From a virus, in the IMG/VR virus record IMGVR_UViG_3300019886_000004, positions 83,917-147,916 of that record: a stretch of DNA of 64,000 bases, one strand, 5' to 3'. Both the position numbers and the translations under genes were made by a program. The first letter of the stretch is position 1. Every line of letters starts with the position of its first letter. The notes below the pieces were generated by a model that did not search any database, had not been told where the DNA came from, and saw only the letters and a list, made by a program, of their open reading frames with translations. Positions 45,739 through 52,853 of the stretch are shown piece after piece.

Positions 45739-48328
45739 AGTCTTTCTCTTATTTCAGACAAACTCTGATCTTTTATGAGCTTTCCGTCCTTGAACACAAT
45801 CTCCAGCGCTCCTTGCTTTTCTTGATCCCAAGTTTGTTGATCATGTAAAATGTAAGTACCGTCTTTCTCTTCTACTCGAAGAAGTCCTTTTGCACTCTTT
45901 TTAGTTCCATCATCTGTTATTGGATCTTTATAGATTTCATGAGGAGTTTTCTTCGTAATAGTGATATCATCTTCGTGCTCTTCATCCTCAAGTATTTCTA
46001 CATACGTAGCTTTTAATGCCAACCCCAGTGAATCCCTCGTATTCATTTGATAGGTGAATGCTTAATTTAAGTATTCTAATTTTATAGGTAATATATTTTC
46101 TGTAAATAATTCTGTTGACCACCTAAAGAATGTTCTTTTATCTTTATATTTTTCTAATATTTCTTGTTCTTTTTTGAAACAATTATATAAGGTATCTTCC
46201 ACACTCCATAAGATGTCAATAGATTTTATAAATCCATTTGACTTTGATTTTATACCGGCTATTCTTTTCTTTAGAGAACTTGCTATGCCAATTTTATATA
46301 ACCTTCCGTTGTTTATGGAAAGATAATATAAATTCACTAATTTATATTTTAATTTCGGTTTATTTTGAAATAAGCTTTCACAATATCCTCCAATTAAAAT
46401 ATTTTTCTTTATTAGATCCTTAATTCTACATTTAAAACAGCCTTGTCCTGCTAAATGTTTTTGAGCGGATTTTACAAATTCACCATGTTCACTACAAATA
46501 ATTCTAATCTTAGATTTTCTATTTTTATAATCTTCACATATGTATTCATATTTATTATTATGAATAATATTTGCCTTTTCTAAAAAGTTTTGAAAATCTT
46601 TGGTTTTAGACTTATTTTTGCTTTCTAATCCGCATTTTTTACATCCTGTTTTACATTGCCGTAAAATGAGATTTCGTGGTGACTGCTCAAATTCTCCATG
46701 TATTGGACAAAACACTTTTATTTTATTCCCCGTAATACCCGACCAATTAGAAAAATCAAATGTGAACTTATTACCATATTTTTCGTAAATTTTCTCTAGA
46801 TATTGCTCTACTGATTTACGACTACTATAATACTTCAAATTTTGGACTATATCATTACCTTCAGCATTATCTGTTAAGGTAGGCACCGCTTCGGAAATTT
46901 CTTTCCTACTCTCTTTCGAGATAGTCTCTGAACGTTCAAGGATATTTCTATCCAAGCTTCGCTGCTGATTTTCTATTTTTATATCTTGCATGATATAAGA
47001 TAAGTAAAAAATCCAAAAATACCAAATTTATTTTTGATAATTTTAGAACTTTTACCTATCAATAGGGTTCCAGCAATTCAATGCCTTTTTTCAATATAGA
47101 TTTCTCTATAAGGGGGCCATTATGTTAACCCTACACCAAATACTATATTAGAAGACGCAAAGCCCTTAGATTTAAGTCTTTCTAAGATTTCCCTCGCTCT
47201 CTCTAAAGTGATAGAATCACCATAAATAGCTCCAATGTGTGGATCAAGGACCTTATATCCCTTCTCGTTAGTGGTTCCACCAAAAACATCCCAGAGAAGT
47301 TCTATAACACCTTTTCCTATTGAACTTAATTTTTCAAAATCTTCTTCGCCAAAATTTAATACAATTTTTTCTCCTGTTCCACAAATAATATCTATAGGAT
47401 CACCTGAGTCAGGACGAATTACTACCTTACCATCTCGTGCAAGAATTACATCTTTTAGTTCAGTTAAATACTCAGTGCAAACCTTCCAAAGGTCCCATGT
47501 GTCAGATACAATTGAAATGATACCTGACGGGAAGACATTTTGAATTAAGTCTTTAAAGCTTTCTAATTCACCCATTTCAGCAGCATTTACACACATAATA
47601 CTGTGTTCTGTAGCTGGTACAGACGTCCCAACTAGTTCTTTCTTGATATCTGCATCATAATACTCTTGTAAAAATAATATGGCAGGTATAGTATCTGTAC
47701 CAACAAAACTTAATAAATGGCCAGCACCCGATGTCATAGATGTTTCTACTGAAGAATAACCTCGTTGGGCAAAATCATGTGCTTGAAATTGTATAAATCC
47801 TTTATCAGCACCTGTCATTTCAGCAAAATTATTTAGTAATTTTCTGTACTCAAGAGCTATAGTAGCTGTTGTGCACGGACTCCAAATAACATTACTTAAA
47901 CAAGTCTCAAGGAAATTTACCAACCATCCAAATCGTGGTTCAGTATTCTTAATAGTTAAGCAGGGAACTCTCATAGGAACTAAACTACCTTCGGGAAGAG
48001 CTTTAATTTCGAGTGGTAAATGACCTAAGTCATGCAAGTCCTTTATGTGCTTTATTTCTACTTCTTTAGTACCTAATGTTAAGGTGATGAAATGTGCGTA
48101 ATTAACTATAACCTCTTCTATGGGCTTTTTAAAGAATAACTCGTCCCATTGGTTGATCAAATATTCTTTGATAAAATATTGTAATCCAAAAAATACCATT
48201 TTCTCTACACCAGGTATTCTACTTTTACGTGGAGTTAAGTTTGAATATAGTAAGGTCATATTCGGAGAGTACATTAGATGGTGCGATTGTTTATAAAAGT
48301 CGCTATTAAGCAGTGGATTTATTCTCAT
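45720..48328 (-). CDS. nadV: Nicotinamide phosphoribosyltransferase-like enzyme (NAMPT/Namat), spliced join(48328-47128, 46060-45720), 513 aa
   Basis: DFYKQSH, HDFAQRG, VPATEHS, VSDTWD, IRPDSGDP, IYGDSIT; splicing restores NIVFGVGSFTYQMNTRDSLGLALKAT. Confidence 0.9.
46062..46991 (-). CDS. Intron-encoded homing endonuclease (two Zn-finger repeats plus a GIY-YIG-like domain)
   Basis: CPIHGEF..GCKKC, CSEHGEF..GCFKC, LYYL..LYKIGI..RI..E. Confidence 0.75.
   Translation of the reverse strand: MQDIKIENQQRSLDRNILERSETISKESRKEISEAVPTLTDNAEGNDIVQNLKYYSSRKSVEQYLEKIYEKYGNKFTFDFSNWSGITGNKIKVFCPIHGEFEQSPRNLILRQCKTGCKKCGLESKNKSKTKDFQNFLEKANIIHNNKYEYICEDYKNRKSKIRIICSEHGEFVKSAQKHLAGQGCFKCRIKDLIKKNILIGGYCESLFQNKPKLKYKLVNLYYLSINNGRLYKIGIASSLKKRIAGIKSKSNGFIKSIDILWSVEDTLYNCFKKEQEILEKYKDKRTFFRWSTELFTENILPIKLEYLN
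46995..47026 (-). promoter_or_regulatory. Intron-internal promoter for the endonuclease
   Basis: TTTG-N20-TATCTTAT, with ATG 46991 after a 3-nt gap. Confidence 0.6.
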
Positions 48329-50340: not shown

Positions 50341-51215
50341 TTTATTAAGGTTATTAGATTGGTTATTCTTTTCTGCAAAATCTCTGAAAATGCCGTATCT
50401 TTTAAAGTGTTAAGTACTTCCTTATTAGCTAATTCCAAAGTCTGTTTACATGCTTCTTTCATTATTTCAAGAGTAGTTTCTCTGTAAGTTAGAGTTAATC
50501 TATCAAATATATTTCTTTCTGTTTTTTCAGTGGATATCTTAATATATATAGATTCTAAATCTACACTAACCTTTTCATAAATAGGTTCCCAGTATTCAGG
50601 AAAATCTATATAATATGTATTTTCCTTTATATCTTTTTGAGAAGATCTCGATAAATCAATAATCTTTCCAGTTTCTTTCCAACCAGGATACGTTTTAATA
50701 GACTTAAATCCGACTATTTTCTTTTCCATATTAAAGTATTATTGGATAAATGTTATAATTATTCTCTTTACTATCAATTAGTACTTTTTCTCTAAGATCT
50801 TCTGCATACTCTATATCACCATAGTGAACTTGACAATTATAAATCATGTACACGTTTAACTCTTTCTCACCTTTTTTCCAAGGCTTAGCTATTACGAAGT
50901 TGAATCGATTATTTGTTATAAATTCTCTTTTAGCCATTTTTTAAATGATTTTATGCTTTCTACATCATTATTCTCTGAGTAAGAATTAGAAAATTCCCTA
51001 ACTGCCTCATCCCAGGTGTCTTGTAATAATGATTTAACTTGTGCACGAGTAAATATCCTTTTAGGAACTTTTATTGGTCTGGCTTCACAATCTTCACGTG
51101 AACAAGGTACATTTGTATCACATTTGGAACCTGGTCCGGGTTTACATCTCGGACATACTAATACTATGTCTGTTAGCTTTTCCATACTATTTAACTTTGT
51201 AATGAACTCCACCAA
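50337..51215 (-). other. Three small hypothetical genes (50337-50729, 50731-50937, 50916-51215)
   Basis: Tightly packed minus-strand ORFs. Confidence 0.45.
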
Positions 51216-51456
51216 AACTAAGATTAGTAATTGTCTGAGGATTAACTAGCCTAATTCCCTTATTTTTAAGAGAATGTACTTTAATATAACCAAGTGGATT
51301 GTCTTGTATCTTAAATCGCATACCGTTGATAGTATGAGGTTTCGCGTCTTTACCAACATGAGTACTGGTGAAAAATCTACCTTTTGTGTCATTGATTAGT
51401 TTTACTATTTCTGTACGAGAAACGCGTTTTACTGTAAAATTTTTATTATGTGACAT
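51187..51456 (-). CDS. Small SH3-like phage protein
   Basis: KGRFFTSTHVGKD..ING pattern. Confidence 0.5.
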   Translation of the reverse strand: MSHNKNFTVKRVSRTEIVKLINDTKGRFFTSTHVGKDAKPHTINGMRFKIQDNPLGYIKVHSLKNKGIRLVNPQTITNLSFGGVHYKVK

Positions 51457-51489
51457 GTTATTTAGTTTTTTTTATAAGTTAAAATAATT

Positions 51490-51577
51490 GTTCCTGCTGT
51501 TCTACCAACTGAACTACGTAACCATGGCCTGGATAGGGTGGGCTTCGCTAGGATTTGAACCTAGGCAAGCCAGGAGC
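51490..51577 (-). ncRNA. Circularly permuted tRNA-like RNA (YrlA-like topology)
   Basis: T arm CTAGG-TTCAAAT-CCTAG precedes D arm GTTC-AGTTGGTA-GAAC; acceptor CGAAGCC/GGTTACG closed by a linker; ends pair TCCTG/CAGGA. Confidence 0.7.
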
Positions 51578-51595
51578 GAGATGCATAAATATAAT

Positions 51596-51622
51596 AAAAA
51601 ATCCGGGAGATTAATCCCGGAT
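51596..51622 (-). terminator. Intrinsic terminator
   Basis: ATCCGGGA-ttaatc-TCCCGGAT followed by TTTTT. Confidence 0.75.
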
Positions 51623-51657
51623 CTGACTTACAAAATGGAAATTTCGAACTATTTAAT

Positions 51658-52407
51658 CTAATCTGTATGTTTTCTTGTCCAAAATACGTGATTAACGCAC
51701 GCTAATTTTGTTCTATTCAATAAATTAGCAGCTATTTCAGAACCTTTCATCAATCCATTTTCTTTAACACATTTTAATAAAATTTGTTCTTCTTCTTTAT
51801 TCCAAACCATGAAACTCATTTCTGTTTTTGCTTGCCTTTTTATTATTCTATTTTTTCTTCTAGTTGTTGGTCTTATTTCACAAAACTGATCGCCGTTTAA
51901 ATAATTCCATTTATATCCATAACCTGTTATCTGTTTCTTCCTACAGCATTTTATAATGTTTGTTCTAAGAAATCCAAGCTCTCTTTCAATTTCCATTGGA
52001 TTCTTCCAGGTTCTTATTTGATTGTTATCTAAATCCAACTGCTCGATGGGTAAATCTCTGTCTTTTATTGTACCTGCTCCACCTCCTGTACCACCTATAT
52101 CATGATTAACTAATGTCCCACCTCCATGTTTTTTTCTGCCATAAAAGGCTATCAATTCAATTTCCTTAGCTTTTATGTGTTCAAGATCATCATTTTCTTT
52201 TATGATTTCTATTTCATATTCAACTTTCCTCGTAACATTTTTCCAATAATCACTTCTTTTCGAACATTCAAAAGCCCTGGAGTACCTAGTTCTATGTCCA
52301 TTTATTTTCTTAGGATTTGGAGTAGTACCCATACCAATATAAAAGATTTCCTTGGTATCTAACCTTTTATGTGAATAAACATAATATTTCTTAGACTTAT
52401 CTATCAA
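51658..52407 (-). CDS. GIY-YIG homing endonuclease with NUMOD1-like domain
   Basis: YYVYSH..FYIGMG..R..E..LVN; EQLDLDNNQIRTW..IIKCC..GYKW. Confidence 0.75.
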   Translation of the reverse strand: MIDKSKKYYVYSHKRLDTKEIFYIGMGTTPNPKKINGHRTRYSRAFECSKRSDYWKNVTRKVEYEIEIIKENDDLEHIKAKEIELIAFYGRKKHGGGTLVNHDIGGTGGGAGTIKDRDLPIEQLDLDNNQIRTWKNPMEIERELGFLRTNIIKCCRKKQITGYGYKWNYLNGDQFCEIRPTTRRKNRIIKRQAKTEMSFMVWNKEEEQILLKCVKENGLMKGSEIAANLLNRTKLACVNHVFWTRKHTD

Positions 52408-52853
52408 TTTGATTCCTCAGTCTTATCCATATTATCTACATCTATTCTAGATATGCTCCAACCTTTTTCATAGGCTAAGAGGGGATGAGCTTCCAAAAAA
52501 ATGTGGCAGGAATAGCAAACTGCGAGAAATTTGGTCTTATCAAGTAGTAAAGATCCAATGCGCCCAGCACGATGGTGAACTTGCATTAAGGAAGGATGAC
52601 ATTCACTACATCCTGGAAGATTTACTTCGCAGCATGGGTGCTCTTTTAGGAACTGAGCTCTTACTTTACCATATTGATTCAATAAATTCTTCTGTTTATC
52701 CGAAACCTGCTTAATTCTAGCTCTTGGTTTAACTGCCTTTAGTTTCTTCTCTTCTATTTTTTTTCTGTTGTAACAAACTTTGCAGAGCTGGTATCCAAAC
52801 AAATATTGTTCGGTATTACAGCCTTTACAAAGTTTCTTTCGGTGCTTTATCAT
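52404..52853 (-). CDS. HNH-family nuclease
   Basis: CEVNLPGC..QVHHRAGR..LAVCYSCH. Confidence 0.7.
   Translation of the reverse strand: MIKHRKKLCKGCNTEQYLFGYQLCKVCYNRKKIEEKKLKAVKPRARIKQVSDKQKNLLNQYGKVRAQFLKEHPCCEVNLPGCSECHPSLMQVHHRAGRIGSLLLDKTKFLAVCYSCHIFLEAHPLLAYEKGWSISRIDVDNMDKTEESN

What the first reader, a model, noticed from the sequence alone, without database searches (positions are those of the whole stretch)
51490..51577. Circularly permuted tRNA mimic standing alone in an intergenic gap
Seen on the minus strand, in this order: anticodon-stem 3' strand (TCCTGG), 5-nt variable loop (CTTGC), perfect T arm (CTAGG-TTCAAAT-CCTAG), acceptor 3' strand (CGAAGCC), 17-nt linker, acceptor 5' strand (GGTTACG, 6/7 pairs), U8-A9, perfect D arm (GTTC-AGTTGGTA-GAAC), anticodon-stem 5' strand (GCAGGA). 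The tertiary residues U8/A14, G15/C48, G18G19 and TTC are all kept, but the chain is open at the anticodon and closed at the acceptor. Known: this is the topology of bacterial YrlA Y RNAs (normally next to Ro60/Rsr) and of permuted tRNA genes in some algae and archaea. No Ro60 gene is in the window and I see no Ro-binding motif. Inference: a phage tRNA-elbow mimic or decoy with no cleavable anticodon loop, or a precursor for processing and religation.
Basis: partly seen in the sequence, partly recalled or inferred. Interest (0 to 1): 0.85.

Follow-up and report, generated by a model that had tools for sequence, protein, structure and literature searches.

The report
Phage back-to-front tRNA look-alike RNA
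This uncultured gut-type phage carries a small RNA gene that has every part of a tRNA written in rotated order (amino-acid end sealed, anticodon loop missing), and four related phages keep the same fold through compensating mutations, so it is a working tRNA look-alike of a known general kind and not gene debris, though its job is still unknown.

Summary
It reads 3' anticodon-stem strand, variable loop, T arm, acceptor 3' strand, 17-nt linker, acceptor 5' strand, U8-A9, D arm, 5' anticodon-stem strand. ARAGORN calls a tRNA only after re-permutation. Rfam gives only a weak YrlA match (19.4 bits, cut-off 69), and only to the tRNA-like module.

It is not debris. Homologues lie at the syntenic place in four Logan contigs. 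All four tRNA helices covary: 11 of 24 pairs change on both sides, 95% of cells pair, and 0 of 500 shuffles do as well. A 9-nt single-stranded leader (GCAUCUCGC), an A5-purine68 mismatch and a U-rich trailer are also conserved.

In two relatives the element lies 10-13 nt after a tRNA-Cys. In this genome that tRNA is missing, beside homing-endonuclease-like genes. The complete 148-kb genome has no Ro60/TROVE, vWA, RtcB, RNA ligase or CCA-enzyme gene.

Best reading: a Ro-independent, YrlA-type permuted tRNA mimic, probably opened by RNase P. Its function is inferred only. This scan has found permuted tRNA mimics in other phages before. This one is a new variant of a known kind.

The parts
51576..51586 (-). 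Conserved single-stranded 5' leader ATGCATCTCGC (core GCAUCUCGC). Homology to the relatives starts exactly here.
   Evidence: Nearly invariant in 4 of 4 full homologues, with one change in L124. The blastn homology boundary is at 51584-51586.
51571..51575 (-). 3' strand of the anticodon-stem analogue (TCCTG)
   Evidence: Pairs with 51492-51496. CG, UA and UG occur at one pair across homologues (helix 1).
51565..51570 (-). Invariant G (G.G with 51497) plus the 5-nt variable loop CTTGC, ending in C48
   Evidence: G15/C48 is kept in all copies.
51548..51564 (-). T arm CTAGG-TTCAAAT-CCTAG
   Evidence: 4 of 5 pairs change on both sides among homologues (helix 2).
51541..51547 (-). Acceptor 3' strand CGAAGCC
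   Evidence: Pairs 6 of 7 with 51517-51523. 4 pairs covary. The 5:68 mismatch (A.A or A.G) is conserved in all 5 copies (helix 3).
51524..51540 (-). 17-nt linker that closes the acceptor stem. It holds a small conserved hairpin (CCT-N4-AGG) and AT just before G1.
   Evidence: (helix 4). Position -1 is U in 4 of 5 copies.
51517..51523 (-). Acceptor 5' strand GGTTACG
51499..51516 (-). U8-A9 and the D arm GTTC-AGTTGGTA-GAAC
   Evidence: The UA to CG change at one D-stem pair occurs in 2 homologues (helix 5).
51492..51498 (-). A26, the invariant G, and the 5' strand of the anticodon-stem analogue (CAGGA)
51481..51491 (-). U-rich trailer ACAATTATTTT, a possible 3' end or terminator tract
   Evidence: The TTTT run is invariant in 5 copies. 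That it is a 3' end or terminator is inference only.
51599..51624 (-). Intrinsic-terminator-like hairpin of the upstream gene, about 12 nt upstream of the leader. Relatives have a tRNA-Cys(GCA) between such a hairpin and the leader.
51187..51456 (-). Downstream 89-aa gene encoding a WYL/Sm-like beta-barrel protein. It is the conserved neighbour and a candidate, unproven, partner.

Best explanation
The element is a gene for a small structured RNA of about 105-110 nt, from the leader to the U tract. Its body is a complete class I tRNA in circularly permuted order. The acceptor end is closed by a 14-18 nt linker and the chain is open where the anticodon loop would be. [quoted passage not shown]

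Shown: it is conserved in a small clade of uncultured crAss-like phages, and all four tRNA helices and the tertiary nucleotides are under selection.

Inferred:
- It is transcribed with the neighbouring tRNA gene, or here by read-through or an unrecognised promoter, and folds into the tRNA L-shape.
- It has a 7-bp acceptor stem, G1 and mostly U at position -1. Host RNase P would therefore cut it in the linker, followed by 3' trimming and CCA addition, as shown for Mycobacterium smegmatis YrlA. That would give a two-piece tRNA-shaped molecule that cannot decode.
- It acts in trans as a tRNA mimic that engages a tRNA-recognising factor through its elbow and acceptor. The invariant single-stranded leader would give specificity, for example as a binding site for the adjacent WYL/Sm-like protein.
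For: - Anatomy and re-permutation test.
- The only Rfam match is the tRNA-like module of YrlA.
- Syntenic homologues are in L121, L124, L126 and L138.
- Model R1 scores 121-152 bits on the full copies and finds a single copy in the window.
- Covariation: 95.4% of cells pair, 11 of 24 pairs change on both sides, 0 of 500 shuffles reach this, and slid registers give 29-49% pairing.
- RNAalifold recovers the same fold.
- The tRNA-like fold is the minimum-energy fold in L124 and L126.
- The element is about 85% identical to L126, against 68-78% for the flanking genes.
- L120 keeps the tRNA-Cys without the element, and this genome keeps the element without the tRNA-Cys, so the two are separable genes.
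Against: - There is no expression, processing or binding datum.
- Only 5 homologues, one of them cut, from one narrow clade.
- No promoter is recognisable upstream in this genome: a TATATTTA box has no TTTG at the -33 position.
- In the window copy the acceptor stem is the weakest of the family. A competing GGCU/AGCC pairing gives -23.1 kcal/mol against -19.3 for the tRNA-like fold.
- The element always ends 25-35 nt before an ORF, so a cis role is not excluded.
- No partner protein is identified by a known family.
Confidence: 0.55

Rival explanations
1. It is a cis-acting tRNA-like punctuation or stability element. The fold is recognised by RNase P, and possibly other tRNA-processing enzymes, to separate the upstream transcript (tRNA-Cys or the endonuclease mRNA) from the downstream mRNA. 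The base-paired halves then cap and protect the new ends. It has no trans-acting role.
For: - The element ends 25-35 nt before a start codon in all 5 copies.
- In more distant relatives the same 89-aa gene is preceded at 33-38 nt by an ordinary tRNA: Thr in L128, Asn in L129, and one in L142. The slot upstream of this gene is therefore regularly filled by a tRNA-shaped RNA.
- The 7-bp acceptor stem with U at -1 fits an RNase P site (PMC4201824).
Against: - An ordinary tRNA would serve this purpose. This reading does not explain the permuted order, the invariant leader, the conserved A5-purine68 mismatch or the G.G pair.
- In L126 the downstream gene is a different small ORF.
- A conserved U tract right after the closing stem suggests the RNA ends before the ORF.
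Confidence: 0.2
2. It is a precursor of a working tRNA. The permuted transcript would be joined at the anticodon end and opened at the acceptor end, as in Cyanidioschyzon merolae, or used as a two-piece aminoacylated tRNA.
For: - The body is complete and tRNA-like.
- If the 5-bp stem is taken as the anticodon stem, the leader reads U-CUC-G-C just before it, like the 3' part of an anticodon loop.
- Wang et al. 2018 raise this possibility for YrlA in general (10.1101/312249).
Against: - Leader and trailer add at most 2 bp, with no bulge-helix-bulge.
- Bacteria have no known tRNA splicing endonuclease (10.1101/312249).
- The phage has no RtcB or RNA ligase.
- The would-be anticodon differs between copies: CUC, and CGC in L124.
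- The discriminator base varies (C, G, A, A, A).
- G3:U70 is not conserved.
Confidence: 0.07
3. It is a relic of a rearranged tRNA cluster, for example made during homing-endonuclease-driven turnover, with no function of its own in this genome.
For: - Two HNH/homing-endonuclease-like ORFs lie directly upstream.
- The tRNA-Cys that precedes the element in relatives is gone.
- L120 lacks the element.
- The window copy has the weakest acceptor stem.
Against: - Compensatory changes occur in every helix across five lineages, and the leader is invariant.
- The element is more conserved than the neighbouring genes.
- All tertiary nucleotides are intact.
- No matching halves exist elsewhere in the genome.
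Confidence: 0.08
4. It is a true Y RNA that works with a Ro60/Rsr protein supplied by the host, or with a Ro60-like phage protein too divergent for the profiles used.
For: - It has YrlA topology.
- The Bacteroides thetaiotaomicron control genome has both a TROVE and an RtcB match, so a Bacteroidota host could supply Rsr.
- Earlier notes of this scan report Ro60-like genes beside such RNAs in other phages. These are leads only and were not tested here.
Against: - There is no helix beyond the 5-7 bp closing stem and no GNCGAAN0-1G motif (motif from PMC4201824).
- The complete genome has no TROVE, VWA or VWA_2 match.
- T-stem sequences vary freely, unlike in YrlA (10.1101/312249).
Confidence: 0.1

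Closest known systems
YrlA (Y RNA-like A; Rfam RF02553; Chen et al. 2014, PMC4201824; structure in Wang et al. 2018, 10.1101/312249)
   Same: The segment order is the same: variable loop, T arm, closed acceptor stem, U8-A9, D arm, with the chain ends at the anticodon stem. The tRNA tertiary nucleotides are the same. Like M. smegmatis YrlA, it has a 7-bp acceptor stem, the form that RNase P cuts.
   Different: It has no Ro/Rsr-binding helix or GNCGAAN0-1G motif. The genome has no rsr gene. It scores 19.4 bits against a cut-off of 69. T-stem sequences are free to vary. Instead it has an invariant 9-nt single-stranded leader, a conserved A5-purine68 mismatch and a G.G pair beside the closing stem.
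Permuted tRNA-like modules in phage tRNA clusters (13 found here in IMG/VR, for example L088, L102 and L030, with sub-threshold YrlA matches), and similar cases noted earlier in this scan
   Same: They share the permuted T arm, closed acceptor and D arm core, and a location in or beside phage tRNA genes.
   Different: Those elements match the full YrlA model (1-114) at 30-53 bits and carry an extra hairpin and a long closing stem. This family has neither, and it shares only the generic tRNA core with them (R1 positions 29-98, 29-40 bits).
Circularly permuted tRNA genes of Cyanidioschyzon merolae and some other algae and archaea
   Same: The 3' half is encoded before the 5' half, and the acceptor end is closed by a linker that RNase P and RNase Z would open.
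   Different: Those precursors have a leader-trailer helix with a bulge-helix-bulge motif and are ligated into real tRNAs with an anticodon loop. Here there is no such helix, no conserved anticodon and no ligase in the phage.
Two-piece (permuted) tmRNA (Rfam RF04321)
   Same: The gene order, acceptor 3' piece before acceptor 5' piece, is the same, and processing would yield two base-paired pieces.
   Different: tmRNA lacks a D stem and carries pseudoknots and a tag reading frame. This element has a full D arm and none of those, gives no Rfam match, and does not conserve the alanine identity pair G3:U70.

Membership tests
YrlA (RF02553) | tRNA-like domain in permuted order: T arm, loop-closed acceptor stem, D arm | tested here: met
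   Read. cmscan aligns it to model positions 24-84. ARAGORN calls a tRNA after re-permutation.
YrlA (RF02553) | Score at or above the Rfam gathering threshold (69 bits) | tested here: not met
   It scores 19.4 bits, E 0.14, in a 401-nt search. It gives no match at the gathering threshold.
YrlA (RF02553) | Ro60/Rsr-binding stem carrying the GNCGAAN0-1G motif (PMC4201824) | tested here: not met
   Model positions 1-23 and 85-114 are unmatched. The flanks add at most 2 bp. The motif is absent from the leader, trailer and conserved columns.
YrlA (RF02553) | Encoded next to an rsr (TROVE) gene | tested here: not met
   There is no TROVE match in the complete 147,916-bp genome, and no VWA_2 or VWA match. 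The relatives' full contigs could not be searched.
YrlA (RF02553) | Sequence-conserved T and D stems (10.1101/312249) | tested here: not met
   4 of 5 T-stem pairs change on both sides among five close homologues. The D stem changes at one pair.
Functional tRNA (RF00005) | Contiguous cloverleaf with a 7-nt anticodon loop and a free acceptor end | tested here: not met
   ARAGORN and Rfam find no tRNA at this place. The chain is open at the anticodon and closed at the acceptor.
Permuted tRNA genes (C. merolae type) | Leader-trailer helix with a bulge-helix-bulge motif, and ligation that restores a conserved anticodon loop | tested here: not met
   Only 0-2 extra pairs form. The would-be anticodon is not conserved. 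The phage has no RtcB or RNA ligase.
Two-piece tmRNA (RF04321) | tRNA-like domain without a D stem, plus pseudoknots and a tag reading frame | tested here: not met
   There is no Rfam match even at E 10, and a full D arm is present. The same model does find a permuted tmRNA in locus L068.
RNase P substrate (tRNA-like) | 7-bp acceptor stem stacked on a 5-bp T stem, G1, and U at -1 | tested here: met
   All 5 copies have a 7-bp acceptor stem with one conserved mismatch. All have G1:C72. Position -1 is U in 4 of 5. Actual cleavage cannot be tested with these tools.

The most novel reading that the evidence does not exclude
The RNA would be the core of a Ro60-independent particle. [quoted passage not shown] Its invariant single-stranded leader would be held by the adjacent WYL/Sm-like protein. 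The complex would titrate or misdirect a host factor that recognises the tRNA body, for example a tRNA-targeting defence nuclease or an enzyme that modifies the acceptor end. That would make it an uncleavable decoy protecting translation during infection.
Probability: 0.1. Interest if true: 0.8.

Novelty: new variant of a known kind. Interest (0 to 1): 0.5.

Why it matters
YrlA-type tRNA mimics are known only as partners of Ro60, and their effector is still unknown. Here the tRNA-shaped module is under clear selection but has neither the Ro-binding stem nor any Ro60 gene in a complete phage genome. That suggests the tRNA mimic has a function of its own. It also gives a minimal system of about 100 nt, with one conserved single-stranded tag and one conserved small neighbour protein, in which to find what such mimics bind. 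It further shows that gene finders and Rfam miss a conserved RNA gene in crAss-like phages.

Tried and rejected
- **Interrupted tRNA with distal halves:** rejected. No other T-loop or D-arm fragment exists in the genome.
- **Two decayed tandem tRNAs:** rejected by covariation between the halves.
- **PreQ1 riboswitch:** a 14.6-bit match (E 2.2) rests only on the A-rich tract before the start codon, and that tract is not conserved in relatives.
- **L20 leader, ncS16 and isrK matches:** these are the upstream terminator hairpin.
- **Natural permuted intron-exon arrangement:** the flanks are only about 25-35 nt long, and the one group I intron is 4 kb away.
- **Leader pairing with a target in the genome:** there is one exact antisense 9-mer, as expected by chance.
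- **ACAGCAA 'handle' reported in earlier notes:** it is not present at the element. Only ACAGCA occurs, across the junction of the D stem and the anticodon stem, as in ordinary Lys-type tRNAs.
- **Searches for further homologues that found nothing real:**
  - INPHARED phages, near and distant modes.
  - IMG/VR exact and degenerate patterns; 7 hits, all chance matches in coding sequence.
  - JGI metagenomes; 1 chance hit.
  - GTDB genomes.
  - Protein-guided IMG/VR scans.
- **Access limits:** relatives of a virus record are not drawn, and Logan contigs cannot be searched whole.
- **Paralogues of the 89-aa protein in the genome:** none.
- **Foldseek against the PDB for the 89-aa protein:** no match at E <= 0.001.

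Full report
**1. The observation**

- The anticodon-stem analogue is 5 bp (TCCTG/CAGGA). It is flanked by an invariant G.G pair.
- The acceptor pairs at 6 of 7 positions, with an A5.A68 mismatch.
- U8, A14, G15/C48, G18G19 and the T54-T55-C56 loop are present.

ARAGORN and the Rfam tRNA model find only the two ordinary tRNAs of the window, Thr-UGU and Arg-UCU, and nothing here. I then placed the 5' half in front of the 3' half with any 3-9 nt loop. ARAGORN called a tRNA in 35 of 43 such constructs.

The core is 52% G+C in flanks of 31-33%. A scan of the whole 147,916-bp genome finds no other T-loop or D-arm fragment. This is therefore not a tRNA split by an insertion.

**2. Database identity**

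In a permissive Rfam search of 401 nt, the best match is YrlA (RF02553). It scores 19.4 bits against a cut-off of 69. Only model positions 24-84 align, which is the tRNA-like module. The positions that form the Ro-binding stem do not align. The other weak matches are the upstream terminator hairpin and an A-rich tract before the next start codon.

**3. Context**

The record is an IMG/VR virus genome rated complete by CheckV, 31.7% G+C. Earlier notes of this scan call it crAss-like. My only checks are distant protein matches to crAss-like records: an uncultured phage cr111_1 and Cellulophaga phage phi14:2.

Reading along the minus strand, the order of features is:
1. Two HNH/homing-endonuclease-like ORFs at 52404-52853 and 51658-52407. 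The second has a Myb-like DNA-binding end.
2. A terminator-like hairpin at 51624-51599.
3. About 12 nt of A+T.
4. The element.
5. After 35 nt, an 89-aa ORF at 51187-51456.

The genome has no match to TROVE (Ro60), VWA_2, VWA, RtcB, RNA_ligase or the CCA-adding/poly(A) polymerase family. In each search the controls gave matches as expected.

**4. Homologues**

DNA searches of INPHARED, IMG/VR, JGI metagenomes and GTDB genomes found no relative of the element.

The 89-aa protein has 16 homologue clusters at 55-83% identity. Their contigs, mostly Logan assemblies, are syntenic with the window at 68-80% nucleotide identity.

| Locus | Element | Note |
|---|---|---|
| L121 | present | |
| L124 | present | |
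| L126 | present | |
| L138 | present | cut by the contig end |
| L120 | absent | keeps only a tRNA-Cys |
| L128, L129, L130, L140, L142 | absent | more distant relatives; ordinary tRNAs around the 89-aa gene |

In L124 and L126 the element lies 10-13 nt after a tRNA-Cys(GCA), which itself follows a terminator hairpin. In the window that tRNA is missing, and homology to the relatives resumes exactly at the leader TGCATCTCGC. The element is about 85% identical to L126, more than the flanking genes.

**5. Structure conservation**

I built a covariance model from four copies using the tRNA-like structure. I then realigned five copies to it. Pair counts give:
- 24 pairs, with 95.4% of cells paired.
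- 11 pairs with changes on both sides, spread over all helices: anticodon stem 1, T stem 4, acceptor 4, linker hairpin 1, D stem 1.
- 0 of 500 shuffles reach the observed values.
- Only 29-49% pairing when the partners are slid by 1-3 columns.

The alignment was fitted to the structure, and five related sequences are few. However, RNAalifold predicts the same fold on its own and extends the closing stem by two G-C pairs. In L124 and L126 the tRNA-like fold is the minimum-energy fold. In the window copy a competing GGCU/AGCC pairing is 3.8 kcal/mol better than the tRNA-like fold, so its acceptor stem is the weakest of the family.

Features conserved as sequence, not as pairing, are:
- the leader GCAUC(U/G)CGC;
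- the G.G pair beside the closing stem;
- the A5-purine68 mismatch in all five copies;
- AU just before G1 in four of five copies;
- a U run 7-9 nt after the closing stem.

**6. What this excludes**

That test fails to refute, so the element is a selected structure.

A route to a real tRNA is unlikely, for these reasons:
- Leader and trailer form no splice-type helix.
- The triplet in the anticodon position of the leader is CUC in three copies and CGC in L124.
- The discriminator base varies.
- The phage has no RNA ligase.

It is not a tmRNA: it has a full D arm, no Rfam match and no conserved G3:U70.

**7. Comparison with YrlA**

Chen et al. 2014 (PMC4201824) define YrlA by three features: a tRNA-like domain, a Ro-binding stem with GNCGAAN0-1G, and a position next to rsr. 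They show that the M. smegmatis RNA, the one with a 7-bp acceptor stem, is cut by RNase P and receives CCA in vivo. Wang et al. 2018 (10.1101/312249) describe YrlA as resembling a circularly permuted tRNA with conserved T- and D-stem sequences.

The present element shares the permuted domain and the 7-bp acceptor stem. It fails the other defining features. So it works like the tRNA-like half of YrlA but is not a member of that family.

A pattern scan of IMG/VR found 13 other permuted modules with 6-7 acceptor pairs inside phage tRNA clusters. Many match the full YrlA model at 30-53 bits. They share only the generic tRNA core with this element. Earlier notes of this scan report many such mimics in other phages, several beside Ro60-like genes. 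I used those notes as leads only.

**8. The neighbour protein**

The 89-aa protein has no Pfam family. Its AlphaFold model is confident, with a mean pLDDT of 87. Fold comparisons give:
- WYL domains of PafBC, CapW, BrxR and DriD at Z 6.2-7.7.
- Hfq at about Z 5.
- Nearest structure clusters in the Atlas are viral, and one carries WYL_2.

These Z values are in a range where only the fold, not the function, can be claimed.

The gene lies in tRNA clusters in every locus examined. In 8 of 11 distinct loci a tRNA or this mimic ends 33-38 nt before its start codon. This fits two readings: a protein that deals with tRNA-shaped RNA, or tRNA-punctuated expression of its mRNA.

**9. Verdict**

The most likely reading (0.55) is a Ro-independent, YrlA-type permuted tRNA mimic expressed from a small tRNA operon. 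It is probably opened by RNase P into two paired pieces and probably acts in trans through its tRNA shape and its conserved leader.

| Rival reading | Probability |
|---|---|
| Cis-acting processing or stability element | 0.2 |
| Partner of a host or hidden Ro60 | 0.1 |
| Relic of tRNA-cluster turnover | 0.08 |
| tRNA precursor | 0.07 |

Nothing about expression, processing or binding has been shown. I rate it a new variant of a known kind.

Noticed in passing
window 51187-51456 (-); also L120-L142: The 89-aa neighbour belongs to a phage-only family with a WYL/Sm-like beta-barrel fold. The gene sits inside tRNA clusters in every locus seen. In 8 of 11 distinct loci a tRNA or the mimic ends 33-38 nt before its start codon.
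   Followed up: partly
L121:3698-3775: A second, unrelated permuted tRNA-like module with a 9-bp loop-closed acceptor stem and a 7-bp closing stem. It lies about 100 nt upstream of the homologue of the element.
   Followed up: no
L121:3788-3870: A Cys(GCA)-like tRNA that appears to lack a D arm. It has a 15-nt anticodon loop and a long A+T hairpin in the variable region. It occupies the place where relatives have a normal tRNA-Cys. ARAGORN does not call it.
   Followed up: no
window 51658-52853 (-): Two HNH/homing-endonuclease-like ORFs overlap by 4 nt in different frames. The second ends in a Myb-like DNA-binding domain. L124 has homologues of the first ORF and of the start of the second, and still has the tRNA-Cys that this genome has lost.
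   Followed up: partly
window 46825-47136 (-): Group I intron match (Rfam RF00028, 52.4 bits, just above the cut-off of 50).
   Followed up: no
L033, L050, L053, L056, L068, L088, L089, L090, L102, L008, L010, L030, L114 (IMG/VR): Thirteen permuted tRNA-like modules inside phage tRNA clusters. ARAGORN calls none of them as a tRNA. Many match YrlA at only 30-53 bits, below Rfam's cut-off, so standard annotation would miss them.
   Followed up: partly
L068:6477-6635 (-): A permuted (two-piece) tmRNA match (RF04321, 64.3 bits) inside a phage tRNA cluster.
   Followed up: no
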